From Caldimicrobium thiodismutans (GTDB taxonomy: Bacteria; Desulfobacterota; Thermodesulfobacteria; Thermodesulfobacteriales; Thermodesulfobacteriaceae), in assembly GCF_001548275.1 (NCBI RefSeq), contig NZ_AP014945.1, forward strand, positions 570,001 to 602,000: a stretch of DNA of 32,000 nt, in the 5' to 3' direction. The notes under the pieces were generated by a model that saw only the letters and a list, made by a program, of their open reading frames with translations, had not been told where the DNA came from and did not search any database. Positions 5,786-20,518 of the stretch are shown one piece after another. Within the stretch, counting starts at the first letter, position 1; each line of letters opens with the position of its first letter. The position numbers and the translations under genes are program-made.

Positions 5786-5849
5786 AGGAGCTTGCAATTT
5801 TGGATAATTATATTAAATTTGAGCTCAAAAGGTAAAGGAGGAGAGCAGA

Positions 5850-6047
5850 ATGTCCAAGATATGTGAGGTCTGTGGGAAAAAACCTGTTTGTGGAAATAAG
5901 GTCAGCCACTCTAATAAAAGATCCAGTCGCTGGTGGTATCCCAATATTCAAAGTATAAGGGTTAAGCTCCCCAGTGGGCAGATTAAGAGGATGAAGGTTT
6001 GTACCCGGTGTATAAAGGCCGGTAAAATTCAAAAAGCTGTGAGTTAA
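5850..6047 (+). CDS. rpmB: 50S ribosomal protein L28
   Basis: The 65-aa product MSKICEVCGKKPVCGNKVSHSNKRSSRWWYPNIQ is a typical L28. A strong SD (AAGGAGGAG) lies 7-8 nt upstream. Confidence 0.93.
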   Translation: MSKICEVCGKKPVCGNKVSHSNKRSSRWWYPNIQSIRVKLPSGQIKRMKVCTRCIKAGKIQKAVS

Positions 6048-8233
6048 ACAAGTTTTCTTTCAACCTTTAGAACTCCCTCAACCTTACTTATATTGGCAAT
6101 GACCTTATCTAAATGTCCCCGGTCTGAAACCTCAACATAGATTTCAAAGAAGGCCTTTTTATCCGGGGTGGTTTTAACCTCGGCCTTGAGGATATTGCCC
6201 TCAGCACTTGCAATAGCAGAGGAAACATTGGCTAAAAGACCTTTTCTGTCAAGGGAAACCACATAAAGATGAGCAGGATAGGTTTTCCCATCTGGTTTTT
6301 CCCATTTTACCTCAATAATTCTTTCGGGATCAAGATCTGCTAAGTTTGGACAGTCGGTGCGATGCACTGAGATTCCCTTTCCACGGGTGATATACCCCAC
6401 AACTTCATCACCTGGAATAGGTCTACAGCACTGGGCTAAATGAAAGAGCAAATCAGAAGATCCATCAGCAACTAAACTAAGGCCTGGTTTTTTTTCAGGA
6501 ATTTTGGTTTCAGGCACTTTATGATAACTTATTACTTCATGTGGAGCCTCTTCAATCTTTGGAAATCCCTTGTTTATTTCACTATAGGACTTGATAACCT
6601 GTTTAGGGTTTAGTTTCCCTGTTCCAAGTAAAACAAATAATTCCTCAGAAGATTTTAATCCCAGTTTCTGTAATAACTCTGCAAAGAGGGGTTCCCTTTG
6701 AAAATCATTTAGGCTGTAGTTGTATTTTTTAAGTTCCCGTAGAATGAGCTCCTTTCCAACAGCAATTTGTCTTTCTCTTTCCTCATGTTTGAACCATTGT
6801 TTGATACGGGACCTGGCACGGCTTGTTTTAACAAATTTTAGCCAGTCTCGGCTTGGTTTTTGATGAGGGGAGGTCTCAACACGCACGACATCCCCTGTCT
6901 CAAGCTTGTAATCAAGAGGCACTAACTTTTCATTAACATAGGCCCTTACACAGCGATGTCCTATTTCTGTATGAATACTATAGGCAAAGTCAACTGGTGT
7001 GGAATCAACAGGTAGAACAATTACATCCCCTTTAGGGGTAAAAACATAGATTTCCTCTGGGAAGAGATCAAGCTTTAAGGATTCCAGAAATTCCCGTGGG
7101 TGTTTAAGTTCCCTCTGAAGTTCTATAAGCTTAGCAATCCACTCAAATTGTTTGTATTTTGAGGAATCAACGACTGCGCCCTCTTTGTATAAAAAGTGAG
7201 CGGCAATTCCCTCATTGGCAATTTTATCCATATATTCAGTGCGGATTTGGATCTCAATTTTTTTCCCATCAGGTCCTATAACTGTAGTGTGGAGGCTTTG
7301 ATACATATTTGGTTTAGGAAGGCTGATATAATCTTTAAATCTTCCGGGCACGGGTTTCCAGAGGGAATGCACAAGTCCCAGGGTTTTATAGCATTCTTCA
7401 ATAGAATTTACAATTATTCTAAACCCAATCAGATCATAGATTTGATCAAGATCATTTATAGTAAGATTATATTTTTGAAGTTTACGATAGACACTATAGA
7501 GATGTTTTACCCTTCCCAGAACCTCACCTTTTATGTGATTTTCTTTGAGGAGGTTAGTTAATATTTCTTTTACCTTTTCAACAAAACCTTTTGCCTCTTT
7601 TATTCTTTTTTCAACCTCTATCTTGAGTTTCCTATAATCTTCAGGATAGAAATATTTAAAAGAGAGGTCTTCAAGTTCTGTTTTAACCCAATCAATACCG
7701 AGTCTACCAGCTAAGGGTGCATAAATCTCAAGGGTTTCCTGAGCAATTCTTTTTTGTTTATGTTCTGGCATGGCCTCTAAGGTTCTCATATTGTGAAGTC
7801 TGTCTGCCAGTTTGACTAAAATGACCCTGAGGTCTTTAGCCATGGCAAGTAAGATCTTTCTTAAGTTTTCTGCCTGTTTGGTAATTTTATCCGAATAACC
7901 TGGTAAATTTTTAAGCTTGGTTACTCCTTCAACAATGGTGGCTACATCTTTGCCAAATTCCTTTTCAATGGTTTCAATGGGGAATTGACAATCTTCCACT
8001 GCATCGTGAAGAAATCCAGCGGCAATAGTGGGAAGATCAAGCTTCATTTGAGCAAGAATGAAAGCAACTTCCATAGGATGGGCTAAATAGGGCTCACCTG
8101 ATTTTCTAATCTGACCATCATGCAGCTTGGCAGCCCATTCATAGGCTTTTTCAACAAGACGCGTATTAACACCAGGTAGATAGCTCTGTATCTGATCTAA
8201 TATTTTGCCCAAAGAAACCTGACTTTCTATCAT
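6044..8233 (-). CDS. rel: Bifunctional (p)ppGpp synthetase/hydrolase, RelA/SpoT (Rel) family
   Basis: The N-terminal HD hydrolase domain shows HDGQIRKSGEPYLAHP and FLHDAVED. The synthetase domain shows RFKDYISLPKPNMYQSLHTTV. TGS-like and C-terminal ACT-like regions follow. Length is 729 aa. Confidence 0.93.
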   Translation of the reverse strand: MIESQVSLGKILDQIQSYLPGVNTRLVEKAYEWAAKLHDGQIRKSGEPYLAHPMEVAFILAQMKLDLPTIAAGFLHDAVEDCQFPIETIEKEFGKDVATIVEGVTKLKNLPGYSDKITKQAENLRKILLAMAKDLRVILVKLADRLHNMRTLEAMPEHKQKRIAQETLEIYAPLAGRLGIDWVKTELEDLSFKYFYPEDYRKLKIEVEKRIKEAKGFVEKVKEILTNLLKENHIKGEVLGRVKHLYSVYRKLQKYNLTINDLDQIYDLIGFRIIVNSIEECYKTLGLVHSLWKPVPGRFKDYISLPKPNMYQSLHTTVIGPDGKKIEIQIRTEYMDKIANEGIAAHFLYKEGAVVDSSKYKQFEWIAKLIELQRELKHPREFLESLKLDLFPEEIYVFTPKGDVIVLPVDSTPVDFAYSIHTEIGHRCVRAYVNEKLVPLDYKLETGDVVRVETSPHQKPSRDWLKFVKTSRARSRIKQWFKHEERERQIAVGKELILRELKKYNYSLNDFQREPLFAELLQKLGLKSSEELFVLLGTGKLNPKQVIKSYSEINKGFPKIEEAPHEVISYHKVPETKIPEKKPGLSLVADGSSDLLFHLAQCCRPIPGDEVVGYITRGKGISVHRTDCPNLADLDPERIIEVKWEKPDGKTYPAHLYVVSLDRKGLLANVSSAIASAEGNILKAEVKTTPDKKAFFEIYVEVSDRGHLDKVIANISKVEGVLKVERKLV

Positions 8234-8247
8234 ATAGTTTAATATTA

Positions 8248-8276
8248 AATCTAAATCTAAAATTAAAAAACATCAA
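8248..8276 (-). promoter_or_regulatory. Candidate sigma70-type promoter for rel (-35 TTGATG, 17-nt spacer, -10 TAGATT on the minus strand)
   Basis: This was read by eye on the minus strand. The -10 ends about 14 nt before the rel ATG, and no Shine-Dalgarno lies in between. That implies a very short or absent leader. Confidence 0.25.
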
Positions 8277-8282
8277 GAGAGT

Positions 8283-8436
8283 GTTTGCGTCCATATCTTT
8301 TGAGGCTCTATAGGATTTTTTCTTAGGGCGCAACACAAATTAAATCTCTCCACATACCCATTCCCCTTCGGAAAGAAAGGATAAATAATCTGCAAAATCT
8401 TTCCTTAAGTAGAGGTTTAAAATTTTAAACCCCTAC
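8283..8436 (-). repeat. Copy A of a ~150-nt intergenic repeat element (palindromic cap plus body), oriented toward rel
   Basis: The reverse complement of 8283-8400 aligns to 13562-13681. By hand alignment, 81 of 86 core positions are identical. A 10/11-nt divergent patch follows, then 23/23 identical positions (CTCAAAAGATATGGACGCAAACA). The cap 8411-8436, AGAGGTTTAAAATTTTAAACCCCTAC, contains the perfect 18-bp palindrome GGTTTAAAATTTTAAACC. Confidence 0.85.
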
Positions 8437-8444
8437 ATGGGGCT
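8428..8444 (-). terminator. Possible intrinsic terminator after the Cys-repeat ORF / dxs operon
   Basis: The minus strand reads AAGCCCC-ATGTA-GGGGTT followed by TAAAATTTT, 11 nt after the stop at 8455. The stem is short (4 GC pairs plus 2 weaker pairs) and the T tract is interrupted. Confidence 0.3.
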
Positions 8445-8454
8445 TATGATTTTT

Positions 8455-8877
8455 CTATTTGCAAAAGGAGTTTTCTGGATATTTTCGGCAAAATTGTGAG
8501 ATTTCTTCAGAGAGAAGCCCCTTAGTTTCAAGCTCTGCCTGTTTTAATTCCTGCCAGAGCTGACAATTTGGATTTTGGGGTAAAATTTTGGTGCAAAAAA
8601 GGAAAAGATTGCTTCTGAAACTTTTTTGGCAGAATTTTTCTTTTGGATTTTTAGAACAAAAATCTTTGATATCTTTATAAATTAAGCTTTTAACTTCAAG
8701 CCTTTTTTGTCTGATTTCAAACCATCTTTGACAAAGGGGACTTGAAGAGGAAATTTTAGTGCAGTAAGTGTTTATATCCCTTTCGGATTTAATAGGAGAT
8801 TTGTGAGAATCTTGGGCAGAAATACTCCCAAAAAAAAGACATAAAAGACCAAGACTTAAAAAAAGTTTTTTAACCAT
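8455..8877 (-). CDS. Small secreted cysteine-repeat protein (140 aa), function unknown
   Basis: The signal peptide is MVKKLFLSLGLLCLFFGSISA/QD. The mature part is two tandem copies of C-x9-C-x24-C-x8-C: CTKISSSSPLC...FCSKNPKEKFC and CTKILPQNPNC...FCRKYPENSFC. I recognise no family. Confidence 0.7.
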   Translation of the reverse strand: MVKKLFLSLGLLCLFFGSISAQDSHKSPIKSERDINTYCTKISSSSPLCQRWFEIRQKRLEVKSLIYKDIKDFCSKNPKEKFCQKSFRSNLFLFCTKILPQNPNCQLWQELKQAELETKGLLSEEISQFCRKYPENSFCK

Positions 8878-8957
8878 GGCAAAAAGATATTTGCAAAAAA
8901 TATACCCTTTACAATTATATAAATTTGCTTCTTTGAAAGCCTAAGCTTACAAAAAAG

Positions 8958-10829
8958 TCAGTAATTTCCAACTAAATTGACGAATTTTTCTATAATTTTT
9001 TCTGTTGAAAGACCATATTTTTTTCTTAAAGTTTTAAGATCCCCCTGTTCAACAAAATGGTCAGGAAGACCCAGATAGCCAAACTTCACATATATCCCTT
9101 CTTCAAGAAGTAATTCAGAAACACTTGATCTTAGGCCCCCCAAAATAGAATTTTCTTCCACAACTAAGACTTTACCAGTTTTTTTGGCATATTCTAAAAG
9201 GAGCTCCCTATCTAAGGGTTTTAAAAATCTTACATTAATAACAGCTACAGAAAATCCTTTTTTTTCAAGCTCTTCTCCAGCCTTCAATGCAGGATAGCAC
9301 ATACTTCCTATAGCAAAGATAGCTCCATCTTTACCTTCCTTAAGCACTTCTGCCTTTCCCGATGGAATAAAGCTAAAGTTTTCATCTATCTTAACTCCTA
9401 TGGCCTCACCTCTCGGATATCTTATGGCACAGGGCCCTTCATACTTAAGGGCACTAAAAAGGAGATTCCTGAGTTCTTTTTCATCCTTTGGAGCACAAAT
9501 TATCAAATCGGGAATAGGTCTAAGATAAGAAAGGTCAAAGGCTCCATGGTGGGTTGGGCCATCCTCACCCACAAGACCTGCCCTATCAATGGCAAATATA
9601 ACTTTGGCTTTATTTAGAGCTACATCGTGAATGATCTGGTCATAAGCCCTTTGTAAAAAGGTTGAATAAATAGCACAGACTGGAATAAAACCCTCCAAAG
9701 CAAGACCTGCTGCAAAGGTAACCGCATGTTGTTCACATATACCTACATCAAAGAACCTATCGGGATATTTTTGGGCAAACTTTTTTAACCCTGTTCCAGA
9801 CTTCATGGCAGCGGTTATGGCAATAAGTCTTGGTTCAAGCTCCGCAAGCTTCACTAAGGTATCACCAAAGACCTCTGTATAAGAAGGTGGGGCTCCTTCG
9901 GATTTGAGAGGTCTTCCTGTTTCAAGGTTGAAAGGACCAATTCCGTGAAAGGTCTCTGGATCAGCTTCAGCAGGGGGATAACCTTTGCCTTTTTTAGTTA
10001 CCACATGAAAGATAATAGGTCCCTTTAACTCTTTTAAATTTTTTAATATCTCAATCAGGGTATCCAGATCATGACCATCAACAGGCCCAACATATTCAAA
10101 ATTAAGGGCTGTAAAAAGAGCTCCTGGTGTGACTGCCATTTTTAAGAGATCTTCGCCTTTTTTGAAGATATGAAGAAGATTGTCTCCTCCAGGTAGCCTG
10201 GGGACTATTTTTTCAATCTCTTTTTTTATAAATCGGGCAAGATTTCCGGTCATCCTTTTGGAAACAAAGCTTGATAGGGCCCCTACATTTGGTGAGATGG
10301 ACATTTCATTATCATTAAGAATGATAAGAAGATCCTCTCGTAGATATCCAGTGTTATTAAGGGCTTCAAAGGCCATTCCTGCTGTGATCGAACCATCTCC
10401 AATGACCACTATGATTTTTCCCGTCTCTCCTTTAATTCTTCGGGCTACTGCCATTCCAAGACCAGCTGATATTGAGGTACTGCTGTGTCCGGTATCAAGC
10501 ACATCATAAGGGCTCTCTGCTCTTTTGGGGAATCCGGCAAGGCCTTGGAAGGTTCTTAGGGTCTTAAAGGCATCCCTTCTCCCTGTGAGAATCTTGTGAG
10601 TATAACACTGATGACCCACATCCCAGATAATTTTATCTTTTGGGGTATCAAAGACATAATGGAGAGCAAGGGTAAGCTCCACAACCCCTAAATTTGGAGC
10701 AAGATGCCCCCCATTTTTGGATACCACATCAAGAATTAATTTTCTTATCTCCTCAGCAAGTAATTTAAGCTGAGAGGGCTTTAATTTTTTCAGATCCTCA
10801 GGACCTTCTATTTTAGAAAGTAAACTCAT
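8958..10829 (-). CDS. dxs: 1-deoxy-D-xylulose-5-phosphate synthase
   Basis: The 623-aa product has the thiamine-diphosphate motif region GDGSITAGMAFEALNN and GHSSTSISAGLGMA. The N-terminus (LLSKIEGPEDLKKL) is typical of Dxs. It sits in the classic xseB-ispA-dxs arrangement. Confidence 0.95.
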   Translation of the reverse strand: MSLLSKIEGPEDLKKLKPSQLKLLAEEIRKLILDVVSKNGGHLAPNLGVVELTLALHYVFDTPKDKIIWDVGHQCYTHKILTGRRDAFKTLRTFQGLAGFPKRAESPYDVLDTGHSSTSISAGLGMAVARRIKGETGKIIVVIGDGSITAGMAFEALNNTGYLREDLLIILNDNEMSISPNVGALSSFVSKRMTGNLARFIKKEIEKIVPRLPGGDNLLHIFKKGEDLLKMAVTPGALFTALNFEYVGPVDGHDLDTLIEILKNLKELKGPIIFHVVTKKGKGYPPAEADPETFHGIGPFNLETGRPLKSEGAPPSYTEVFGDTLVKLAELEPRLIAITAAMKSGTGLKKFAQKYPDRFFDVGICEQHAVTFAAGLALEGFIPVCAIYSTFLQRAYDQIIHDVALNKAKVIFAIDRAGLVGEDGPTHHGAFDLSYLRPIPDLIICAPKDEKELRNLLFSALKYEGPCAIRYPRGEAIGVKIDENFSFIPSGKAEVLKEGKDGAIFAIGSMCYPALKAGEELEKKGFSVAVINVRFLKPLDRELLLEYAKKTGKVLVVEENSILGGLRSSVSELLLEEGIYVKFGYLGLPDHFVEQGDLKTLRKKYGLSTEKIIEKFVNLVGNY

Positions 10830-10830
10830 G

Positions 10831-11733
10831 TTAACTTATCCTCTGTAAGAGATAATGAGTTAAGATCTCTAAGAGTTCCCCCTTTTCCCCCAGGGGAGCT
10901 AAACTATCTATAGCCTCTTGAGTAGTTTTTTCAGCAAGCCTTTTTGTTTTCTCAAGACCAAAGAGAGAAGGGTAGGTGAGTTTCCCTTTTTTAAGGTCAG
11001 ATTTAGCGGGTTTTCCCATCTGCTTTTCATCGCCAATAAGATCCAGAAGGTCATCAGTTATCTGAAAGAGAAGGCCAAATTTTTTTCCAAATCTGGATAG
11101 AATTTTAAGGGTCTTTGCAGGGATCCCAGCAAGGATAGCCCCGCTGACAAGAGAGGCCTCAATCAGGGCTACCGTTTTATGTTCATGAATCCATCTCAAC
11201 AATTTTAAATTACCTTTTTTGCCTTCGGAGAGAAGGTCTGCCATCTGTCCACCAACCATGCCCTGAAGTCCTGAGGCCTTAGCAATATAATTAATCGCCT
11301 TCAAAAGGACCTTGGGATTAATCTTTTTTACTACCTCTGGATGAGTAAACCACTCATAGGCTAAGGCCTGAAGGCCGTCACCAGCTAAGATAGCGGTTGC
11401 TTCATCAAAAGCCTTATGACAGGATGGTTTCCCTCTCCTAAGGTCATCATTATCCATACAGGGCAGGTCATCATGAATAAGGGAATAGGTGTGAATACAT
11501 TCTATACCACAGGCAAAGGGCAAGATCTCCTCAGATTTTTTGTCCCCAAGTTCATATCCCATAAGACAAAGAATGGGACGCAGTCTTTTCCCTCCGGCAG
11601 AGAGACTATAATAGGAGGCAGAGATTACTCTTTCTCCATAGGATCTCTCCTTAGGAAATAATTCCTCTAAAGTTTTTTCAATGAGGAAACGCTTCTCCTC
11701 TAAATAGGTCTTAAGTTTGTCAAAATTATCCAT
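10831..11733 (-). CDS. ispA: Farnesyl/geranylgeranyl diphosphate synthase (short-chain trans-prenyltransferase)
   Basis: The first Asp-rich motif is HDDLPCMDNDDLRRGKPS and the second is ITDDLLD. The gene lies 1 nt upstream of dxs and overlaps xseB by 8 nt. Confidence 0.9.
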   Translation of the reverse strand: MDNFDKLKTYLEEKRFLIEKTLEELFPKERSYGERVISASYYSLSAGGKRLRPILCLMGYELGDKKSEEILPFACGIECIHTYSLIHDDLPCMDNDDLRRGKPSCHKAFDEATAILAGDGLQALAYEWFTHPEVVKKINPKVLLKAINYIAKASGLQGMVGGQMADLLSEGKKGNLKLLRWIHEHKTVALIEASLVSGAILAGIPAKTLKILSRFGKKFGLLFQITDDLLDLIGDEKQMGKPAKSDLKKGKLTYPSLFGLEKTKRLAEKTTQEAIDSLAPLGEKGELLEILTHYLLQRIS

Positions 11734-11983
11734 TTTTCAGTTTTTCCTTAGCGGAATCTAAATCTTCCAAAATAAAAGTATCTTTTTCTTTTAGAATTAC
11801 TTCAACCTTAAGTCTTGCCTCCTTGAGGCGATTTTCACAAAGGTGAATGAGCTTGACTCCCTCTTCATAAAGAGCTATTGCCTTTTCAAGTTCAAGATCT
11901 TTTTGTTCAAGTTCTCTCAGAATCTCCTCAAGTCTATTAAGAGCTGATTCAAAGGAGAGTTGGCTAAGATCTTTAATACTCAT
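11726..11983 (-). CDS. xseB: Exodeoxyribonuclease VII small subunit
   Basis: The 85-aa helical protein contains FESALNRLEEILRELEQKDLELEKAIALYEEGVKL, a typical XseB sequence. It overlaps xseA by 4 nt. Confidence 0.88.
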   Translation of the reverse strand: MSIKDLSQLSFESALNRLEEILRELEQKDLELEKAIALYEEGVKLIHLCENRLKEARLKVEVILKEKDTFILEDLDSAKEKLKNG

Positions 11984-13344
11984 TTTTTCACCTTTATGAC
12001 CTCAGCATAGATTTTACCTTCGGCTAAGGTTATCTCAATGGAATTTCCAGTCATCACTTCTGTAGCAGATTTGATAATTTTCCCATCAGGTAAGATTTTA
12101 ACGATACTATAACCTTTTTCAAGGATATTGTAAGGAGAAAGTGAAAAAAGGAGCTTTTTTAGACCTCTGAGTTTTTCTTCCTGTAAGGCAATCTTTTTTT
12201 CAGGATCATTGCTTTCAAGCCTCCTTTGTAGGCTTAAAAGAAGACCTTCTTTTCTTTGCAGGAGTGAGGTTACCTTCTGATAAAGGGAAAAGCTAAAGTC
12301 CCTTAAAAGTTTTTCTGTCTTTGAGAAAAGAAGGACTGGATTTTTTTCTTGGAGGGAGACCTGGTAGGACTTAAGGATTCCTTCTGAAGTAGTAAGCTTA
12401 AGGTCAAAGAGGTGATGGAGTTTTTTCTTTAAAATCTCTAAGCGTTCTAAAATCTCCCTTTTATCAGGAAAAATCTCTTGAGCAGCAGCTGAGGGTGTAG
12501 GAGACCTTTTATCTGCAGCAAGATCACAAAGGGTTAAGTCTATTTCATGTCCAACTGCCGAGACTATGGGAATCCGAGAGTCAAAGATACTAAGAATTAG
12601 CTCCTCTGTATAAAATGGTGCCAGATCTTCTGTTGACCCTCCTCCTCTTGTAATGACAATTAGATCTAAATCTGGAAAATAGGTATTCAAATCCTCAATA
12701 GCCTTAGATATTTCAAGATGAGCACCTTCACCTTGAACCTTTACAGGATAAAGAAGGATGTGAGCTCCCCAGCGAGCTTGACTTACTTTAAGAAAATCTT
12801 GCAAGGCTGCCCCAAAAAGAGAGGTTATAAGAGCAACCTTTTTAGGAAAGGGGGGAAGCCCTTTTTTTACTTCAGGGCTAAAAAAAGGCTTATACTTCTG
12901 CAATAAAAATTCCTTTCTAAGTTGGAGAAGTCCTATACCCAGGGGTTCAAGTTTGCGAATAATAAAGAAGACCTCTCCAGATCTGGGAAAAAGAGTAAGT
13001 TTCCCATAAGTAAGAACTTTCAAGCCCTCTCTTAGGAGCTCAGAAGCTATAAATTCCCTCTGATCCCTAAAAATTATTCCTTTGAGAGAGGCCTCCTCAT
13101 CTACCAGATTGAGATAAAGGTTACCATTCTGGCTATGTCTTAAACTTGAGATTTCTCCTTCTATCCAGAGATAGGGAAAATTGTCATCCAGAAGTCCTTT
13201 TATTCTTTGAGAGACCTCTTTGACAGTCCAATAAAATTTTTCTTCCCATTGCCCTGAGGTAAAGTAATTTGTTTCCGGTCTCATCAATCTTAAATATAGG
13301 TTTATTTTAAAAAATAAAAAGCCCTTCAAAGGAGATTTTTGCAT
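11980..13344 (-). CDS. xseA: Exodeoxyribonuclease VII large subunit
   Basis: An N-terminal OB fold (WIEGEISSLRHSQNGNLYLNLVDEEASL) and the catalytic region (ITRGGGSTEDL, VSAVGHEIDLTLCDLAAD) are present. The start is ambiguous. The ATG at 13344 gives an atypical 20-aa extension, and the ATG at 13284 (MRPETNYF) is an alternative. Neither has an SD. Confidence 0.88.
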   Translation of the reverse strand: MQKSPLKGFLFFKINLYLRLMRPETNYFTSGQWEEKFYWTVKEVSQRIKGLLDDNFPYLWIEGEISSLRHSQNGNLYLNLVDEEASLKGIIFRDQREFIASELLREGLKVLTYGKLTLFPRSGEVFFIIRKLEPLGIGLLQLRKEFLLQKYKPFFSPEVKKGLPPFPKKVALITSLFGAALQDFLKVSQARWGAHILLYPVKVQGEGAHLEISKAIEDLNTYFPDLDLIVITRGGGSTEDLAPFYTEELILSIFDSRIPIVSAVGHEIDLTLCDLAADKRSPTPSAAAQEIFPDKREILERLEILKKKLHHLFDLKLTTSEGILKSYQVSLQEKNPVLLFSKTEKLLRDFSFSLYQKVTSLLQRKEGLLLSLQRRLESNDPEKKIALQEEKLRGLKKLLFSLSPYNILEKGYSIVKILPDGKIIKSATEVMTGNSIEITLAEGKIYAEVIKVKK

Positions 13345-13422
13345 AAGTTCAGATCCTTACAAGAAAAAAGGGAGGGGTGGTAAAAGAGAAATTAGATATC
13401 TATACAATGGAGGCTTTACAAG

Positions 13423-13502
13423 TCTGAAAGTAACACAGGCAATCTTGCCTGTGGAAGTAAATTACACTCCAATCTGTGAAAGAAACACAGACAAGAATGT
13501 CT
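13423..13502. promoter_or_regulatory. Pair of imperfect 20-nt direct repeats, each running into a hairpin, in the xseA-nrdR divergent intergenic region (candidate operator sites)
   Basis: TCTGAAAGTAACACAGGCAA (13423-13442) and TGTGAAAGAAACACAGACAA (13475-13494) match at 17 of 20 positions and are offset by 52 nt. The first runs into a perfect 9+9 palindrome, CACAGGCAA-TC-TTGCCTGTG (13434-13453). The second has 5-bp stems: CTGTG/CACAG (13474-13490) and AGACA/TGTCT (13489-13502). Confidence 0.4.
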
Positions 13503-13530
13503 ATACTACAACAGACCCACAAAAAATTCA

Positions 13531-13681
13531 AGAGGTTTAAAATTTTAAACCCCTACTATTTAGATTTTGCAGATTATTTATCCTTTCTCTCCGAAGGAAA
13601 ATGGGTATGTGGAGAGATTTAATATGTGTTACGCCCTAAGAAAAAATTTTTTTTAAGTCTCAAAAGATATGGACGCAAACA
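13531..13681 (+). repeat. Copy B of the ~150-nt intergenic repeat element, oriented toward nrdR
   Basis: The cap at 13531-13556 is identical to 8411-8436. The body at 13562-13681 is the reverse complement of 8283-8400 at about 94 percent core identity by hand alignment. It ends 42 nt before the nrdR ATG. Confidence 0.85.
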
Positions 13682-13687
13682 ATTCCT

Positions 13688-13715
13688 TTGCTTTTAGTGA
13701 AAAATGAGGCATAAT
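13688..13715 (+). promoter_or_regulatory. Candidate promoter for nrdR (-35 TTGCTT, 16-nt spacer, -10 CATAAT)
   Basis: This was read by eye. The -10 ends 8 nt before the nrdR ATG at 13724, and there is no SD. This is consistent with a leaderless or near-leaderless transcript. Confidence 0.3.
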
Positions 13716-13723
13716 AATAATGA

Positions 13724-14173
13724 ATGAAGTGTCCTAAATGCAAAGAGCCAGAAACCAGAGTTATAGACTCGCGCATTATTGAAGATGGCTTTACTATTCG
13801 TAGAAGGAGAGAGTGTTTGAAATGTGGTTATCGCTTCACAACCTATGAAAAGCTTGAACTTGATATTGTGATTGTTAAGAAAGATGGAAGGAGAGAACCT
13901 TATAGCCGTGAAAAGCTCCTATCAGGTATTCGGAAAGCCTGTCATAAACGGCCTATAAGTGAAGAGACCATAAAAGCCTTTGTTAATGAGCTTGAGCTTG
14001 ATTTGATTCAAAGAGGTGAGCGAGAGATACCTGCAAGTTTCCTTGGTGAGAGAGTTATGTCAGTCTTAAAGAAATGGGATAAGGTAGCTTATATCCGTTT
14101 TGCCTCGGTTTATAAGGATTTTCAGGATGTAGATGAATTTTTGCATAGTATTAAGGAGCTAAGTAATGAATGA
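13724..14173 (+). CDS. nrdR: Transcriptional repressor NrdR (zinc ribbon plus ATP-cone)
   Basis: The sequence MKCPKCKEPETRVIDSR...CLKCGYRFTTYE forms a four-Cys zinc ribbon. An ATP-cone follows (VIVKKDGRREPYSREKLLSGIRKA). Length is 149 aa. Confidence 0.93.
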   Translation: MKCPKCKEPETRVIDSRIIEDGFTIRRRRECLKCGYRFTTYEKLELDIVIVKKDGRREPYSREKLLSGIRKACHKRPISEETIKAFVNELELDLIQRGEREIPASFLGERVMSVLKKWDKVAYIRFASVYKDFQDVDEFLHSIKELSNE

Positions 14174-16664: not shown

Positions 16665-17684
16665 ATGAACTTAGTATTTAGTATCCTTATGCTTATCATT
16701 TTAATCCTTATCCCCGTGATAGGGGTAGGGGCTCTTGGCCTTAATAGTTTATTTGCTATTTTTATTCCCTATTTGGGATTTGCTCTCTTCTTTTTTGGTT
16801 TGATTTATCGCATGATAGATTGGGCCCGCTCTCCACAACCTTTTAAAATTCCCACTACCTGTGGTCAACAGAAAAGTCTTTCCTGGATTAAAAGAAGCAG
16901 GCTTGAATCACCAGCTACCACTTGGGAAGTTTATTTAAGAATGTTTTTTGAGGTCTTTCTATTCAGGTCACTCTTCAGGAATCTAAGGGCAGATTTTGAT
17001 GGAAAGCGTCTCATCTATGGATCAGCTAAATGGCTCTGGCTTGGAGCTATTTTATTTCATGTATCATTTTTGATTATTTTAATCAGACACCTTAGATTCT
17101 TTGTTTATCCAGTTCCCGGGGTTATAACAACTATTGATTTTGTTGATAGTTTCTTCCAGCTGGGTCTTCCTCCTATTTATCTAACAGACGCATTAATTCT
17201 TGCAGGACTCGGCTTTCTTCTTTTGAGGAGGCTTATTGATGCTAAGGTAAATTATCTATCCTATGCCTCAGATTATTTTCCCCTCTTATTAATTATTACT
17301 ATTGCTGCTACAGGTATCTTGATGAGGCTTTATATTAAACCCGATTTATATGCTATAAAACAATTAGCTTATGGACTTGCCACCTTTAATCCTGTCATGC
17401 CTGAAGGAAAATTAAGTCTTCTCTTTTATATTCATCTCTTTCTTGTTAGTTCATTAGCAGCCTATTTTCCCTTTAGTAAGCTTGTGCACATGGTTGGTGT
17501 CTTTTTTAGTCCCACAAGAAATATGGCTAATGATAACAGGATGAAAAGACATGTTAATCCCTGGGATTATCCTGTTAAATATACCACCTATTGTGATTGG
17601 CAGGAAAAGTTTAGAGATGTTATGGAAGAGGCTGGAATTCCCATTGATGATGAATGGTGTAAAGAAACTCAAAAGCAGGCCTAA
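16665..17684 (+). CDS. dsrM: DsrM, NarI-like dihaem b membrane subunit of the DsrMKJOP complex
   Basis: This is a polytopic membrane protein of 339 aa with NarI/HdrE-like helices. It is followed by an HdrD-like dsrK. An SD (GAGGGGAG) lies upstream. Confidence 0.85.
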   Translation: MNLVFSILMLIILILIPVIGVGALGLNSLFAIFIPYLGFALFFFGLIYRMIDWARSPQPFKIPTTCGQQKSLSWIKRSRLESPATTWEVYLRMFFEVFLFRSLFRNLRADFDGKRLIYGSAKWLWLGAILFHVSFLIILIRHLRFFVYPVPGVITTIDFVDSFFQLGLPPIYLTDALILAGLGFLLLRRLIDAKVNYLSYASDYFPLLLIITIAATGILMRLYIKPDLYAIKQLAYGLATFNPVMPEGKLSLLFYIHLFLVSSLAAYFPFSKLVHMVGVFFSPTRNMANDNRMKRHVNPWDYPVKYTTYCDWQEKFRDVMEEAGIPIDDEWCKETQKQA

Positions 17685-17698
17685 GGAGGAGGAAAGAG

Positions 17699-19315
17699 AT
17701 GAGTAAACTTCCCAAACCAGATGAATTACTCAAGGATTTGGATTTACATAAAACACCTGAAAAGCATTGGATGGATATTGCGCCTGAATTTAAGCCAGGC
17801 AAGTTTTGTTATGCTGTTGAGCCTCAAGTTATGGAAGATCTTGGAAGGCCCCATCTTGGAAAATGGCAACCTTATGATGAAAAATGGCCCTTACCTGATG
17901 ATTGGAAAGAGCGTATTTTAAAGGGAATTCGTGATCGCATGGAAAGATTTAGATCCTTCAAGCTTTTTATGGATATATGTGTGAGATGTGGGGCTTGTGC
18001 TGATAAATGCCATTATTTTCTTGGATCAGGCGATCCAAAAAACATGCCTGTTTTAAGAGCAGAACTAATTAGATCCATTATTAAGGGAGAATTTTCCTTT
18101 TTTGGTAAGCTCTTTGGAAGAATGGCTGGGGCTCGTCCTTTAACTGAAGAGGTCTTAAAAGAATGGTTTTATTATTTTTATCAGTGCACTGAATGTAGAA
18201 GGTGTTCTGTTTTTTGCCCTTATGGAATTGATACGGCAGAAGTTACTATAATAATGAGAGATCTTTTACACGAGCTTGGTATAGCTACAGACTGGGCAAT
18301 GAAGCCAGTAAGATTTTCTCATTTTATAGGTAATCATATCGGACTTCAGCCTCATACTATAAAAGAAAATATAGAGTTTCTATTAGGCGACATAGCAGAG
18401 ATTACAGGATTAAATATAGAAGTTCCAATAAATAAGAAAGGAGCTGAAATCCTTTTTGTTACTCCCTCTGCAGATTTTTTTGCTGATCCAGGTATATATA
18501 CCTTTATGGGGTATGTTCTTTTATTTCATCACATTGGTCTTGATTATACTATTAGTACCTATGCCTCAGAGGGAGGAAATTTTGGATTTTTTAATGCTGT
18601 AGAACTGGCTAAAAAACTTCATGCTAAGATTTATGAAGAAGCCAGGAGGCTTAAAGTAAAATGGATCCTTGGTGGAGAGTGTGGTCACATGTGGAGGGTC
18701 TGGCATCAGTATCATAATACTTGGTTTGGACCCTTTAATTACATGGATATTCCAAGATCTCCAATAACTGGAACAGTCTTTGAACATGCTAAGGACAATA
18801 AAATAGTGCATATCTGTGAGTTTACAGCAGATCTTATAGCACATGGGAAACTTAAATTTGATCCTTCCAGAAATGATCATGTAATTGTTACATTCCATGA
18901 TTCATGTAACACTTCCAGGGGTATGGGAATCTTTGAGGAGCCCAGATTTATCTTAAAGAATGTCTGCAATAATTTTGTAGAGATGCCTGAAAACACCATT
19001 CGAGAAAAGACCTTTTGCTGTGGAAGTGGTTCTGGTTTAAATGCAGACGAATATATGGAGATGAGAATGAGAGGGGGGTTCCCACGAGCCAATGCTGTGC
19101 AATATGTAAATCAGAAATATGGAGTAAATACAATGGCTTGTATATGTGCTATTGATAGGGCAGTATTGCCCACTCTTATGAAATATTGGGTTCCCGGAGT
19201 GGAAATAGCAGGAGTTCATGAGTTAGTTGGAAATGCCCTGATAATGGAGGGTGAAAAGGAAAGAACAACCGACCTCAGATATAGACCACTAAAAGGAATG
19301 GAAGAGGAGGTATAA
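17699..19315 (+). CDS. dsrK: DsrK, HdrD-like iron-sulfur catalytic subunit
   Basis: Two ferredoxin-type motifs are present: CVRCGACADKC and CTECRRCSVFCP. CCG-type Cys-rich domains are present (FCCGSGSGL, DSCNTSRG). Length is 538 aa, with an SD (AGGAGGAGG). Confidence 0.9.
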   Translation: MSKLPKPDELLKDLDLHKTPEKHWMDIAPEFKPGKFCYAVEPQVMEDLGRPHLGKWQPYDEKWPLPDDWKERILKGIRDRMERFRSFKLFMDICVRCGACADKCHYFLGSGDPKNMPVLRAELIRSIIKGEFSFFGKLFGRMAGARPLTEEVLKEWFYYFYQCTECRRCSVFCPYGIDTAEVTIIMRDLLHELGIATDWAMKPVRFSHFIGNHIGLQPHTIKENIEFLLGDIAEITGLNIEVPINKKGAEILFVTPSADFFADPGIYTFMGYVLLFHHIGLDYTISTYASEGGNFGFFNAVELAKKLHAKIYEEARRLKVKWILGGECGHMWRVWHQYHNTWFGPFNYMDIPRSPITGTVFEHAKDNKIVHICEFTADLIAHGKLKFDPSRNDHVIVTFHDSCNTSRGMGIFEEPRFILKNVCNNFVEMPENTIREKTFCCGSGSGLNADEYMEMRMRGGFPRANAVQYVNQKYGVNTMACICAIDRAVLPTLMKYWVPGVEIAGVHELVGNALIMEGEKERTTDLRYRPLKGMEEEV

Positions 19316-19318
19316 GTC

Positions 19319-19705
19319 ATGTATAATACAGGGAAAGTTCTTTTGGGAATAATTGTTTTTATATGCTTTTTTGCTATTCCTTTTTGGTTGAATTTAGGTA
19401 AGGTGTCTGCTCTTCCAAAGCCCGAATTACCAAAAGATGAAAAAAAATGTATTGAAGATGTCCAGTATATGAAGGCGTATCACATGAAATTACTGGATAA
19501 GTGGCGAAAAGAAAAGGTGCGAGAAGGAAATATTAATTATATAAATAATGAAGGAAAAATATATAAAATGAGCTTACAGAGAACTTGTATGAAATGCCAT
19601 ACAAGTAAAGAGAAATTTTGTGATAGATGCCATACAACATTGGTAACACACCCTGATTGTTGGGATTGTCATATAGCTCCTGAGGAGGTTAAAAAATGGC
19701 AATAA
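19319..19705 (+). CDS. dsrJ: DsrJ, periplasmic trihaem cytochrome c
   Basis: An N-terminal signal anchor is followed by three CxxCH motifs (CMKCH, CDRCH, CWDCH). An upstream conserved Cys (KKCIEDV) sits where DsrJ carries its Cys haem ligand. Confidence 0.9.
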   Translation: MYNTGKVLLGIIVFICFFAIPFWLNLGKVSALPKPELPKDEKKCIEDVQYMKAYHMKLLDKWRKEKVREGNINYINNEGKIYKMSLQRTCMKCHTSKEKFCDRCHTTLVTHPDCWDCHIAPEEVKKWQ

Positions 19706-20490
19706 AAAGGAGAGATTTTTTAAAAATTCTTGGGGTTGGAGGCATATCCACTATAGGAGTGGCTGGTATTGGCAGTCTTTATTCAAGGGCTGAGGTAGAA
19801 GTTGTTCCCCATACACCCCCGCAAGGGGCATTGAAAGCTAAAAGATGGGGAATGGTGATTGATGTGAGAAAGTGTATAGAATCTGGAGAAGAATGTATCA
19901 AAAATTGCGAGGCAATTCAAGCTTGTCATTTAACCCACAATGTGCCAAATATACCGGATAAAAAAAAGGAAATTAAATGGATCTGGATAGATAATTTTGA
20001 GCATGCCTTTCCTGATTTAAAAGATCAAAAAATTGTTGAACACCTGAGTAGATTCCCCTTTTTCCTTTTATGTAATCACTGCGAAAATCCTCCCTGTGTG
20101 CGTGTTTGCCCTACTAAAGCGACCTTTAAAAGATCAGATGGGATAGTTATGATGGATTTTCATAGATGTATTGGATGTCGTTTCTGTATGGCTGGTTGTC
20201 CTTATGGTTCAAGATCATTTAACTGGATAGACCCGAGACCTTATCTAACTAAGGTTAATCCTGAATTTCCCACTCGTAAACCAGGTGTAGTTGAAAAATG
20301 CCTTTTCTGTTATGAAAGGTTAGATGAGGGAAAAATCCCAGCTTGCGTTGAAGCTTGCAAATCTCAAGCTTTAATTTTTGGAGATTTGAATGACCCCGAG
20401 TCCGAGATTAATAAAATTTTAAAAGAAAGAGTAAGCTTAACGAGAAAACCTGAACTTGGAACAAATCCGTCAGTTTTTTATGTAATTTAA
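19696..20490 (+). CDS. dsrO: DsrO, Tat-exported 4Fe-4S ferredoxin-like subunit
   Basis: The twin-arginine signal is MAIKRRDFLKILGVGG. Fe-S motifs are CNHCENPPCVRVCP, CIGCRFCMAGCP and CLFC...ACVEAC. The gene overlaps dsrJ by 10 nt. Confidence 0.9.
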   Translation: MAIKRRDFLKILGVGGISTIGVAGIGSLYSRAEVEVVPHTPPQGALKAKRWGMVIDVRKCIESGEECIKNCEAIQACHLTHNVPNIPDKKKEIKWIWIDNFEHAFPDLKDQKIVEHLSRFPFFLLCNHCENPPCVRVCPTKATFKRSDGIVMMDFHRCIGCRFCMAGCPYGSRSFNWIDPRPYLTKVNPEFPTRKPGVVEKCLFCYERLDEGKIPACVEACKSQALIFGDLNDPESEINKILKERVSLTRKPELGTNPSVFYVI

Positions 20491-20518
20491 ATCCTATTTA
20501 TATTAGGGAGGGAGACAG

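What the first reader, a model, noticed from the sequence alone, without database searches (positions are those of the whole stretch)
8283..13681. A ~150-nt element present twice, each copy in the same polarity 42-49 nt upstream of a regulator gene start (rel and nrdR)
Seen:
- 8283-8436 (minus sense) and 13531-13681 (plus sense) are inverted copies.
- Each has a 26-nt cap containing the perfect palindrome GGTTTAAAATTTTAAACC. An 86-nt core follows with 81 identical positions, then a 10/11-nt divergent patch, then 23 identical nt (CTCAAAAGATATGGACGCAAACA).
- Relative to the adjacent gene, both copies point the same way. They end 49 nt before the rel ATG and 42 nt before the nrdR ATG.
- Both genes lack a Shine-Dalgarno and have -10-like hexamers close to the ATG.

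Inference: this could be a shared upstream regulatory module (operator array, UP-like element, or a divergently or independently transcribed small RNA). It would link two nucleotide-pool regulators, one for (p)ppGpp metabolism and one for ribonucleotide reductase control. Alternatively it is a dispersed MITE/REP-like repeat that happens to land in promoter regions. The few substitutions (T/C plus GG/AA around CCGAAGG; A/T and A/G around TGTGTT) do not give clear covariation support for an RNA fold.
Basis: partly seen in the sequence, partly recalled or inferred. Interest (0 to 1): 0.7.

Follow-up and report, generated by a model that had tools for sequence, protein, structure and literature searches.

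The report
Two decayed mini-transposons beside gene promoters
The repeated ~150-nt element upstream of rel and nrdR is real, but it is the shared part of two decayed, non-autonomous copies (MITE-like relics) of an IS481-type insertion sequence rather than a shared regulatory module. Its constant position and polarity match this transposon family's apparent habit of landing 5 bp upstream of a promoter-like TTG hexamer.

Summary
Two inverted copies share 86% identity over about 153 nt, with an 86-nt core at 94%, and they end 48 and 42 nt before the rel and nrdR ATGs.

The element is transposon debris. One frame reads YPF(F/S)PK(G/E)NGYVERFN, a fragment of a DDE (rve) transposase. The last 23 nt are the right terminal inverted repeat of an IS481-like insertion sequence (IS). 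Full-length relatives were found in Thermodesulfobacterium and Caldimicrobium metagenome contigs, and both copies align collinearly to them with a shared internal deletion of about 150 nt. The nrdR copy is the right part of a complete 342-bp skeleton (13340-13681) that also carries the IS left end. A near-identical strain has a third, polymorphic 205-bp copy upstream of rpmB.

The element is absent upstream of nrdR in more distant Caldimicrobium. The closest relative has only different IS-end relics at the same two sites. There is no Rfam match and no convincing fold.

At 6 of 8 independent insertions of this family, the right end (...ACA) is followed by exactly 5 nt and then TTG. Empty sites show that this TTG belongs to the target. 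This explains the shared polarity and spacing.

The element itself is an ordinary kind of thing. The possible promoter-proximal targeting is the only mildly novel aspect.

The parts
8282..8436 (-). Copy A, the part shared with copy B: palindromic cap, transposase-gene fragment, internal-deletion junction and IS right end.
   Evidence: 86% identity to B over 153 nt. Collinear blastn and MAFFT matches to full-length IS copies L004, L006, L007 and L008.
8437..8450 (-). Possible degenerate left part of copy A (ATCATAAGCCCCAT). It resembles the family left end (AA)TGCATAAGTTC, or alternatively the internal GGAGGCCCCTTGCATGT of the L002 MITE. It is not shared with copy B.
   Evidence: The match is weak (about 8/11) and is an inference.
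8282..8304 (-). Right terminal inverted repeat (IRR) of copy A: CTCAAAAGATATGGACGCAAACA. It encodes the conserved transposase C-terminus (K)IWTQT.
   Evidence: The terminal GGACGCAAACA is identical to the right end of IS copies L006 and L007, and homology to every IS stops exactly after ...ACA. The WT.T C-terminus is conserved in the 15-sequence alignment A2.
8339..8383 (-). Transposase pseudogene fragment in copy A, reading YPFFPKGNGYVERFN.
   Evidence: Pfam rve_3 E=0.07. BLASTP to the L004 transposase gives 13/15 identical, E=6e-8. blastn gives 33 nt at 97% identity to the L004 IS, E=3e-11.
13340..13681 (+). Complete 342-bp internally deleted IS skeleton (MITE-like) that fills the xseA-nrdR spacer. 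It comprises the left end, a middle part with hairpins, and then copy B.
   Evidence: The left end was recognised. It is homologous along its length to the polymorphic L002 MITE. The empty-site spacers in L019 (107 nt) and L021 lack it.
13340..13384 (+). Left terminal region (IRL plus the start of the IS 5' UTR): TGCATAAGTTCAGATCCTTACAAGAAAAAAGGGAGGGGTGGTAAA.
   Evidence: It matches the left ends of L004 (TGCATAAGTTCCGAG..GTGGTAAG), L008, L006 and the L002 MITE.
13531..13681 (+). Copy B, the part shared with copy A.
13579..13623 (+). Transposase pseudogene fragment in copy B, reading YPFSPKENGYVERFN.
   Evidence: Pfam rve_3 E=6e-4 and NCBIfam IS481 E=0.076. All four codon differences from copy A change the amino acid, which is consistent with a dead gene.
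13659..13681 (+). Right terminal inverted repeat (IRR) of copy B.
8248..8281 (-). Flank of copy A: 5 nt (CTCTC), a -35-like TTGATG, a 17-nt spacer and a -10-like TAGATT. A further 14 nt lead to the rel ATG (8233).
   Evidence: Read directly from the sequence. The stretch is conserved in L009. It is below the threshold of the strict promoter scan.
13682..13715 (+). Flank of copy B: 5 nt (ATTCC), a -35-position hexamer TTTGCT, a 17-nt spacer and a -10-like CATAAT. A further 8 nt lead to the nrdR ATG (13724).
   Evidence: The -10 box is conserved in L009, L019, L021, L012 and L020. The empty sites L019 and L021 have TTGGTA and TTGGTT at the -35 position.
8414..8431 (.). Perfect 18-nt palindrome GGTTTAAAATTTTAAACC in copy A.
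13534..13551 (.). Perfect 18-nt palindrome GGTTTAAAATTTTAAACC in copy B.
   Evidence: Flagged as terminator-like on the minus strand.

Best explanation
The two ~150-nt copies are the shared right-hand portions of two non-autonomous, internally deleted derivatives (MITE-like relics) of an IS481-like insertion sequence, in a Caldimicrobium thiodismutans-like genome.

Each retains three things: about 95 nt of the transposase gene around the third catalytic (E) motif (PKGNGYVERFN), a shared internal deletion of about 150 nt, and the IS right terminal repeat ending ...GGACGCAAACA. The nrdR copy also retains the IS left end (TGCATAAGTTC at 13340), so it is a complete 342-bp end-to-end skeleton. The rel copy is truncated or degenerate on its left.

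Such elements carry no working transposase. A full-length family member would have mobilised them in trans by binding the terminal repeats (inferred, not shown).

Both lie in the same polarity about 45 nt before a gene start. The likely reason is that this IS family inserts with its right end 5 bp upstream of a TTG that is the start of a -35-like hexamer (shown as a sequence regularity; the mechanism is inferred). In addition, both genes have very short leaders. rel and nrdR are transcribed divergently, so this same rule produces the inverted arrangement around the 5.1-kb dxs-ispA-xseBA block.

The core promoters are left intact. The copies now look like neutral or nearly neutral relics, and any effect on rel or nrdR expression is untested.
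For: - **Coding remnant.** One frame hits Pfam rve_3 (E=6e-4 and 0.07) and NCBIfam IS481 (E=0.076) as the only hits. BLASTP to a full-length transposase gives 13/15 identical residues, E=6e-8.
- **Full-length relatives.** L004 (Thermodesulfobacterium MAG) carries a 385-aa HTH+rve transposase that interrupts a UbiA-like ORF. There are 1768 homologues with rve/rve_3 domains. The best NCBIfam model is IS481 (E=7e-51), and 35%-identical plasmid hits are annotated as IS481 family.
- **Collinear DNA homology** of both copies to four IS copies. The core matches over 33-35 nt at 83-97% identity (E from 3e-11 to 1e-4). The 3' end matches over 24-35 nt at 76-88%. MAFFT shows an intervening deletion of about 150 nt, and homology stops exactly at the IS terminus. 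L006 and L007 share the same terminal GGACGCAAACA.
- **IS left end** at 13340-13350, followed by a conserved 5'-UTR box.
- **Recent mobility of the family.** A near-identical strain (L002) has a 205-bp MITE with both ends and the same deletion junction between bamA and rpmB. It is absent from the window and from L001.
- **Not conserved as a regulatory element.** It is absent in L012, L013, L019, L020 and L021, and L009 and L010 have only different IS-end relics.
- **Target regularity.** ...ACA, then 5 nt, then TTG occurs in 6/8 independent sites, and within one base in 8/8. P=1.3e-9, or about 2e-6 after a 1280-fold post hoc correction. The TTG pre-exists in empty sites: rpmB in the window, nrdR in L019 and L021. 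There is a clean 5-bp target duplication ATGAT in L022.
- **No RNA signal.** No Rfam family is matched, and gene-strand fold z-scores are +1.08 and -0.09.
- **Assembly breaks.** Short-read Logan contigs break inside both copies, as expected of a repeat.
Against: - No target-site duplication is detectable around either window copy.
- Copy A has no clear left inverted repeat.
- The terminal repeats of the 342-bp copy match each other poorly (about 6/11). However, each matches the corresponding end of full-length ISs.
- The genome-wide copy number could not be measured, because the source genome was not retrievable from the collections.
- No full-length parent IS with identical ends was found in this organism.
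- The transposases score below NCBIfam's curated IS481 cutoff (173 versus 224 bits).
- The targeting rule rests on only eight sites and was noticed post hoc. The flanking hexamers are only promoter-like, and the strict scan calls none.
- Within each genome, the rel and nrdR relics share an end variant: GCAAACA in the window and CTCAT in L009. This needs either gene conversion or recurrent independent insertion, and the two were not resolved.
Confidence: 0.88

Rival explanations
1. The element has been co-opted as a regulatory module. This could be an operator or UP-like DNA bound by a common factor, or a small RNA. It would co-regulate rel and nrdR, whatever its transposon origin.
For: - Both copies abut the -35 position of two regulator genes in the same polarity.
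- The 23-nt tail and the core are better conserved between copies than the remainder.
- Variants are shared patchily between A and B in sister strains.
- The opposite strand of copy B folds somewhat better than shuffles, z=-2.4.
Against: - The best-conserved parts are exactly the transposase motif and the transposase-binding end.
- The 150-nt element is absent in the closest relative with the same gene order (L009) and in five more distant relatives. The nrdR -10 box is conserved without it.
- A third family copy precedes rpmB.
- There is no Rfam hit, and the gene-strand fold is no better than shuffles.
- All substitutions in the palindrome stem are non-compensatory.
Confidence: 0.06
2. The two copies are the ends of a single rearrangement. 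Either the 5.4-kb segment 8282-13681 is, or was, a composite-transposon-like unit with outward-facing IS right ends, or an IS-mediated inversion or duplication placed one ancestral relic at both borders.
For: - The two right ends face outward, forming perfect 23-bp inverted termini around the 140-aa ORF, dxs, ispA, xseB and xseA.
- Both copies share the same internal deletion and cap.
- Both sites coincide with synteny breakpoints in relatives. L019 has lnt-corC-epimerase instead of rpmB-rel, and L012, L013 and L020 have different genes upstream of nrdR.
Against: - The xseA-nrdR adjacency exists without any element in L019 and L021, so copy B is a simple insertion into an ancestral spacer of about 100 nt.
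- No target duplication flanks the 5.4-kb unit (flanks ...GAGAG and ATTCC).
- The block carries housekeeping genes in conserved order.
- The inverted arrangement follows automatically from the orientation rule at two divergent promoters.
- Copy B has its own left end inside the supposed unit.
Confidence: 0.06

Closest known systems
IS481-family insertion sequences (ISfinder family; DDE/rve transposase, TG(T)...ACA termini, target duplications of 2-15 bp)
   Same: - Full-length relatives encode HTH+rve+rve_3 transposases whose best NCBIfam model is IS481.
- Their termini are TG...ACA.
- L022 has a 5-bp target duplication. The family range of 2-15 bp, mostly 6 bp, is given in PMC10045372.
- The window element carries a fragment of that gene and the right end.
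   Different: - The window copies have no intact transposase.
- The transposases fall below the curated IS481 cutoff (173 versus 224 bits), so this is a divergent subgroup.
- The classic IS481 target is NCTAGN (my own knowledge, not tested here). This subgroup instead shows 5 nt followed by TTG.
Bacterial MITEs derived from ISs by internal deletion (for example MITEAba12, PMC6382973; Correia elements of Neisseria, from my own knowledge)
   Same: - The elements are small (about 170 and 342 bp), non-coding and intergenic.
- Their ends match a parent IS.
- Variants with a shared deletion junction occur at several sites.
- An insertion polymorphism exists between near-identical strains.
- They sit next to promoters.
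   Different: - No target duplications are visible in the window copies.
- Copy A lacks a clear left repeat.
- The copy number is unknown and may be very low.
- A recognisable piece of the transposase catalytic region is retained, which many MITEs lack.
Target-specific transposable elements (for example IS1397/ISKpn1 into REP/BIME palindromes, or Ty3 at RNA polymerase III start sites, PMC6673722)
   Same: The insertion position and orientation are fixed relative to a short host signal.
   Different: - The signal here would be the upstream edge of a sigma-70-type -35 hexamer (TTG). I found no published description of this for an IS481-type element in three literature searches.
- The mechanism is unknown, and the evidence is eight sites.

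Membership tests
IS-derived MITE / non-autonomous IS relic | DNA homology to a full-length IS, including its terminus | tested here: met
   There are collinear core and 3'-end matches to L004, L006, L007 and L008. Homology ends exactly at ...ACA.
IS-derived MITE / non-autonomous IS relic | Both terminal inverted repeats present | tested here: inconclusive
   The 342-bp nrdR copy has both a left end (13340-13350) and a right end (13659-13681) that match the IS ends. Copy A has the right end only, and its left side is degenerate.
IS-derived MITE / non-autonomous IS relic | Small size and no functional transposase gene | tested here: met
   The copies are about 170 bp and 342 bp. Only a transposase-like stretch of about 26-40 codons remains, bounded by stop codons.
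IS-derived MITE / non-autonomous IS relic | Flanking target-site duplication | tested here: not met
   The window flanks are GAGATTTT|...|ATTCC for B and ...|CTCTC for A, and show no direct repeat. A clean 5-bp duplication is seen only in relative L022. The insertions are old or the flanks have been rearranged.
IS-derived MITE / non-autonomous IS relic | Multiple copies and evidence of mobility | tested here: inconclusive
   There are two copies in the window plus a polymorphic third family copy in strain L002. The genome-wide count could not be tested, because the genome and metagenome scans did not return the source genome.
IS481 family (the parent IS) | DDE transposase with an rve integrase core that is closest to IS481 models | tested here: inconclusive
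   IS481 is the best NCBIfam model (E=7e-51, 173 bits), but the score is below the curated cutoff of 224. IS3 comes second at 80 bits. Pfam finds rve, rve_3 and HTH_32. Plasmid homologues are annotated as IS481 family.
IS481 family (the parent IS) | TG...CA termini and a short target duplication | tested here: met
   The L022 IS runs TGCAAAAGTTC...GCTAACA, with imperfect inverted repeats of about 25 bp and the duplication ATGAT. L004, L006 and L008 have TG[C/A]ATAAGTTC...A[C/T]ACA ends.
Structured cis-regulatory RNA or small RNA | Match to a curated RNA family, or a fold more stable than shuffles with covariation | tested here: not met
   There is no Rfam hit at gathering thresholds, and only noise at E up to 10. 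Gene-strand z-scores are +1.08 and -0.09. Stem differences between the copies are not compensatory.
Conserved upstream operator / regulatory module of rel and nrdR | Presence upstream of the orthologous genes in relatives | tested here: not met
   The element is not detected in L009-L014 at E<1e-3. The nrdR spacers of L019, L021, L012, L013 and L020 lack it but keep the -10 box.

The most novel reading that the evidence does not exclude
This divergent IS481-like subgroup, found in Thermodesulfobacteriota and other anaerobe metagenomes, may be a promoter-edge-targeting transposon. It would insert in a fixed orientation with a 5-bp duplication immediately upstream of a -35 hexamer (TTGNNN). Its transposase reading frame runs off the end of the element and often borrows its stop codon (TGA) from the target TTGA. 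Its MITE derivatives would therefore accumulate, and could recur independently, at the upstream edge of the same housekeeping promoters (rel, nrdR, rpmB), where they could insulate or rewire upstream regulation.
Probability: 0.4. Interest if true: 0.55.

Novelty: new member of a known kind. Interest (0 to 1): 0.3.

Why it matters
The proposed regulatory link between (p)ppGpp control and ribonucleotide reductase control is removed. The repeat is mobile-element debris, and genome annotators should mask it. As one consequence, the xseA ORF is artificially extended by 20 codons into the IS left end.

The family's apparent rule of landing 5 bp upstream of a -35-like TTG would be useful if it holds genome-wide. 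It would give a natural marker of promoter positions in poorly studied thermophiles. It would also be an example of sequence- or promoter-directed target choice in the IS481 group, and it would explain why such relics recur at the same promoters and at synteny breakpoints.

Tried and rejected
- **Rfam.** I searched the whole window at gathering thresholds and both regions at E up to 10. Only noise appeared, such as miRNA, snoRNA and CRISPR-DR models far below threshold.
- **tRNA/tmRNA.** None were found.
- **Genome-contig scan with a core 20-mer.** It returned only L004. That hit was very useful, but neither the source genome nor C. thiodismutans appeared, so copy number could not be measured.
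- **Metagenome-contig scan with the 20-nt right end.** The single hit was a chance match in GC-rich, unrelated DNA (L005).
- **Viral-contig search with a transposase alignment.** The relatives were at most 35% identical (one partial 86-residue match, L029, reached 43%), too distant to test the target rule.
- **Plasmid tblastn.** It found only 35%-identical IS481-family members, which is useful for the family label only.
- **Exact-sequence cluster look-up of the small ORFs called inside the element.** This was uninformative.
- **Literature searches** for IS481 target preference, MITEs and Caldimicrobium ISs found nothing specific.
- **Symmetric MITE.** I considered a MITE whose left repeat is the palindromic cap and rejected it, because the cap does not resemble the reverse complement of the right end.
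- **TTG as part of the IS.** I considered and rejected this, because empty sites at rpmB (window versus L002) and at nrdR (L019 and L021 versus window) already contain the hexamer.
- **CACCC as a target duplication in L006.** This is ambiguous, because it lies 4 nt away from the TG left end.
Full report
**1. The observation**

Reading both regions and running the repeat finder confirm two inverted copies. The 86-nt core is 94% complementary (81/86). A second pair of arms covers the 3' tails. blastn gives 86% identity over 153 nt, E=2e-46. A core 20-mer occurs twice in the window against 0.01 expected from shuffles. The palindrome GGTTTAAAATTTTAAACC lies at 8414-8431 and 13534-13551.

The copies therefore end 48 nt before the rel ATG and 42 nt before the nrdR ATG.

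ORF 6044-8233 has HD_4, RelA_SpoT, TGS and ACT domains. ORF 13724-14173 is NrdR, with a zinc ribbon and an ATP-cone.

**2. What the element is**

No Rfam family matches, either at gathering thresholds or at E up to 10.

Translating the element gives, in one frame, ILQIIYPF(F/S)PK(G/E)NGYVERFN. This resembles the region around the catalytic glutamate of DDE (rve) transposases. Pfam returns rve_3 as the only hit (E=6e-4 for copy B, 0.07 for copy A). NCBIfam returns only the IS481 transposase model (E=0.076). These are weak hits on short peptides, so I looked for a full-length relative.

A scan of one genome per species with a core 20-mer returned one locus, L004, from a Thermodesulfobacterium MAG. 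L004 holds a 385-aa transposase containing ...YPRNPKGNGYVERFNRTLEED...SKMIWTYT. It is bounded by TGCATAAGTTCC... on the left and ...GATATGGACTTATACA on the right, and it interrupts a UbiA-like ORF.

This protein has 1768 homologues with rve, rve_3 and HTH_32 domains. Its best NCBIfam model is IS481 (E=7e-51, 173 bits, below the curated cutoff of 224). IS3 is a distant second. Plasmid homologues at 35% identity are annotated as IS481 family.

Three more IS copies were fetched: L006, L007 and L008, whose transposases are 76-77% identical to that of L004. Both window copies match all four ISs at two collinear places:
- the core, over 33-35 nt at 83-97% identity, with E from 3e-11 to 1e-4;
- the 3' end, over 24-35 nt at 76-88% identity.

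MAFFT shows three aligned blocks:
- about 95 nt of the element align to the gene segment encoding ...YLREEGIEHYFNYPRNPKGNGYVERFNRTLEEDFID;
- about 150 nt of the IS are then missing;
- the tail aligns to the IS right end.

Homology stops exactly after ...ACA in every comparison. L006 and L007 end in the same GGACGCAAACA as the window copies.

The conserved transposase C-terminus (I/L)WT.T is encoded by this terminal repeat. BLASTP of the fragment against the L004 protein gives 13/15 identities, E=6e-8. The four codons that differ between copies A and B all change the amino acid, as expected of a dead gene.

**3. The nrdR copy is a complete end-to-end skeleton**

Aligning the xseA-nrdR spacer with relatives exposed TGCATAAGTTCAGATCCTTACAAGAAAAAAGGGAGGGGTGGTAAAAG at 13340. 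This is the IS left end plus the conserved GTGGTAA box of its 5' UTR (compare L004, L006 and L008). So 13340-13681 (342 bp) is one internally deleted IS with both ends, and copy B is its right 151 nt.

The start codon of the 454-aa xseA ORF (13344-13342) lies inside the left end. The orthologue in L009 is 435 aa, so the first 20 codons are probably an artefact.

Copy A shares only the right 155 nt. To its left, the sequence ATCATAAGCCCCATGT may be either a degenerate left end or an internal MITE segment. I leave this open.

**4. Evidence of mobility**

The window's NrdR is 100% identical to that of Caldimicrobium thiodismutans. Near-identical contigs exist in a JGI metagenome (L001) and in an NCBI MAG (L002).

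L002 carries an insert of about 205 bp between the bamA stop codon and rpmB. The window and L001 lack it. Its left end is AGCATAGGTTCATATTCTTACAAGAAAAAG.... Its right end is ...GTAGAAAAAATTCTATAGAGTCTCAAAAGATATGGACTTATACA. It has the same deletion junction as copies A and B and is homologous along its length to the 342-bp copy. This is an insertion polymorphism of the same MITE family between strains whose dxs genes are about 99% identical.

Short-read Logan contigs end inside copy A (L017) and inside copy B (L003), which is how assemblers behave at repeats.

**5. Test of the regulatory reading by comparison with relatives**

| Locus | NrdR identity to window | Upstream of nrdR | 150-nt element |
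|---|---|---|---|
| L009 | 95% | same gene order as the window | not detected at E<1e-3; different IS-end relics at the same sites |
| L010 | 95% | same as L009 | a mini-element of about 130 nt |
| L019 | 85% | xseA, spacer of 107 nt | absent |
| L021 | 84% | xseA, spacer of about 230 nt | absent |
| L012, L013, L020 | 85%, 83%, 77% | different genes; in L013 the upstream gene abuts the ATG | absent |

blastn finds the 150-nt element in none of L009-L014 at E<1e-3.

The closest relative, L009, does have IS-end relics of a different variant at exactly the same positions:
- upstream of rel: ...CCAGTGGACTCATAAG|CTCTCTTGATG;
- upstream of nrdR: ...TTTATGGACTCATGCCA|ATGCTTTAC.

L010 has a mini-element of about 130 nt, running from TGCATAAGTTCCC... 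to ...GGACTCATGCCA.

Across these genomes the GGCATAAT -10 box before nrdR is conserved. The nrdR promoter therefore predates the element and does not depend on it.

RNA folding gives z=+1.08 and -0.09 on the gene strand, and -1.2 and -2.4 on the opposite strand. The differences between copies in the palindrome stem are G.T in A and A.C in B at the same pair, which is not compensatory.

**6. Why the polarity and spacing are the same**

I listed the right flanks of all independent insertions.

| Site | 5 nt after ...ACA | Next hexamer | Spacing and -10-like box | What follows |
|---|---|---|---|---|
| Copy A (rel) | CTCTC | TTGATG | N17, TAGATT | rel ATG 14 nt on |
| Copy B (nrdR) | ATTCC | TTTGCT | N17, CATAAT | nrdR ATG 8 nt on |
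| L002 MITE (rpmB) | GGAGC | TTGCAA (in the empty site) | N16, TAAATT | rpmB |
| L004 IS | ATCAG | TTGTAA | N17, TATAAT | GTG of a response regulator |
| L006 IS | CACCC | TTGACA | - | - |
| L008 IS | ATCTA | TTGAAT | N16, TATAAT | - |
| L022 IS | ATGAT | TTGACA | - | - |
| L024 IS | AATAT | TGGTAT | - | - |

L022's transposase is 50% identical to that of L004. Its IS has clean 5-bp duplications (ATGAT on both sides) and sits just after the rplA terminator. In L024 the TTG lies one base earlier than in the other sites.

TTG sits exactly at +6 to +8 in 6 of 8 sites, and within one base in all 8. With a background TTG frequency of 0.019, P=1.3e-9. After a 1280-fold correction for having chosen the pattern post hoc, P is about 2e-6.

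The TTG belongs to the target, not to the IS. It is present in the uninterrupted rpmB site of the window. The uninterrupted nrdR sites of L019 and L021 have TTGGTA and TTGGTT at that position.

In L006, L008 and L022 the transposase frame has no stop codon inside the IS. It ends at the TGA within the target TTGA.

My reading is that the family inserts, right end first, 5 bp upstream of a TTG that is usually the start of a -35 hexamer. Because rel and nrdR have short leaders and are transcribed divergently, two such insertions look like one element in the same polarity 42-48 nt before two gene starts, in inverted orientation. The sequence regularity is shown. That the hexamers are functional promoters, and how the target is chosen, are inferences. 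The strict consensus scan calls no promoter there.

**7. Open points**

- Neither window copy has a detectable target duplication.
- Within each genome, the rel and nrdR relics share an end variant: GCAAACA in the window and CTCAT in L009.
- In sister strains, copy A carries B-type variants. L002 has the ---ATTT indel and L001 has CTC.
- Gene conversion between the inverted copies, recurrent site-specific insertion, or assembly cross-talk could each explain the last two points. I could not separate them.
- Both sites coincide with synteny breakpoints in some relatives. IS-mediated rearrangement is therefore possible, but copy B is explained by a simple insertion into an ancestral spacer of about 100 nt.
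- Genome-wide copy number could not be measured.

**8. Comparison with known systems, and verdict**

The parent is a divergent IS481-type IS. PMC10045372 gives TGT...ACA termini and target duplications of 2-15 bp for that family. The window copies are MITE-like relics of the kind described for many bacteria (for example PMC6382973). This is a new member of a known kind.

The one aspect that may be new is the precise insertion at the upstream edge of the promoter. I found no description of this in three literature searches. It needs a genome-scale test.

Noticed in passing
window 13285-13344 (minus strand): The 454-aa xseA ORF starts at an ATG (13344-13342) that lies inside the IS left end. The orthologue in L009 is 435 aa. 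The first 20 codons are probably an annotation artefact, with the real start near 13284.
   Followed up: partly
L002 1533-1738 and about 1744-2065 (the empty site is window 5786-5849): The sister strain has two adjacent inserts between bamA and rpmB. One is a 205-bp MITE of the same IS family. The other is an unrelated element of about 320 bp with inverted ends AATGCCTCATTTAATTTTC / GATTTTTAATGAGGCAATT. It sits inside the 5-nt gap between the first MITE and the TTGCAA hexamer.
   Followed up: partly
L009 717-732, 4740-4790 and 9780-9840; L010 4990-5015: A different hairpin-rich repeat (GTAGCCGCAAGACCTTTAGGTTGCGTGAAG...CGCAGGCTAAAGCCTGCGGCTAC) occupies the same three spacers in the closest relative: after bamA, upstream of rel and upstream of nrdR. 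These spacers appear to be hot spots for several small mobile elements.
   Followed up: partly
L006 1271-1280, L008 1376-1385, L022 about 2570-2583: The transposase reading frame has no stop codon inside the IS. It runs through the right terminal repeat, which encodes the conserved ...WT.T, and ends at a TGA supplied by the target sequence TTGA 5 nt beyond the IS end. In L004 (target TTGTAA) the ORF runs on for 9 more codons.
   Followed up: partly
window 8411-8436 and 13531-13556: The 26-nt cap of copy A is the exact reverse complement of the cap of copy B (26/26), while the rest of the element aligns in the same sense. Either the quasi-palindrome was flipped in one copy, or two independent transitions hit the same stem pair.
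   Followed up: no
L001 4559-4713 and L002 4561-4712, compared with window 8282-8436: In near-identical strains, copy A differs at several positions, and some variants are the copy-B state. L002 has the 3-nt-shorter ATTT version and L001 has TCTCTCC. This suggests gene conversion between the inverted copies, or cross-talk during MAG assembly.
   Followed up: partly
L012, L013, L019 and L020, compared with window 5800-13724: Gene order breaks exactly at the two relic sites in some relatives. L019 has lnt-corC-epimerase where the window has rpmB-rel. L012, L013 and L020 have unrelated genes upstream of nrdR. Downstream, nrdR-pyrF-DUF763-dsrMKJOP is conserved in all of them.
   Followed up: partly
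window 13434-13453: A perfect 8-bp hairpin, CACAGGCA-ATCT-TGCCTGTG, lies inside the non-shared middle of the 342-bp skeleton. It is flagged as terminator-like on the minus strand, and the L002 MITE has a comparable hairpin at the equivalent place.
   Followed up: no
window 26306-26523 (inside ORF 25498-27003, minus strand): Two direct 44-nt repeats 174 nt apart lie within a 501-aa protein rich in repeated WPFY/FWPFY motifs. This looks like a repeat protein and is unrelated to the finding.
   Followed up: no
window 16665-21694: This is a dsrMKJOP-like cluster: NarI-like, CCG/Fe-S, a small cytochrome-like protein, a 4Fe-4S protein and NrfD. It is followed by a cobyrinic acid a,c-diamide synthase-like gene, which is consistent with a sulfur-metabolising Thermodesulfobacteriota genome.
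   Followed up: no
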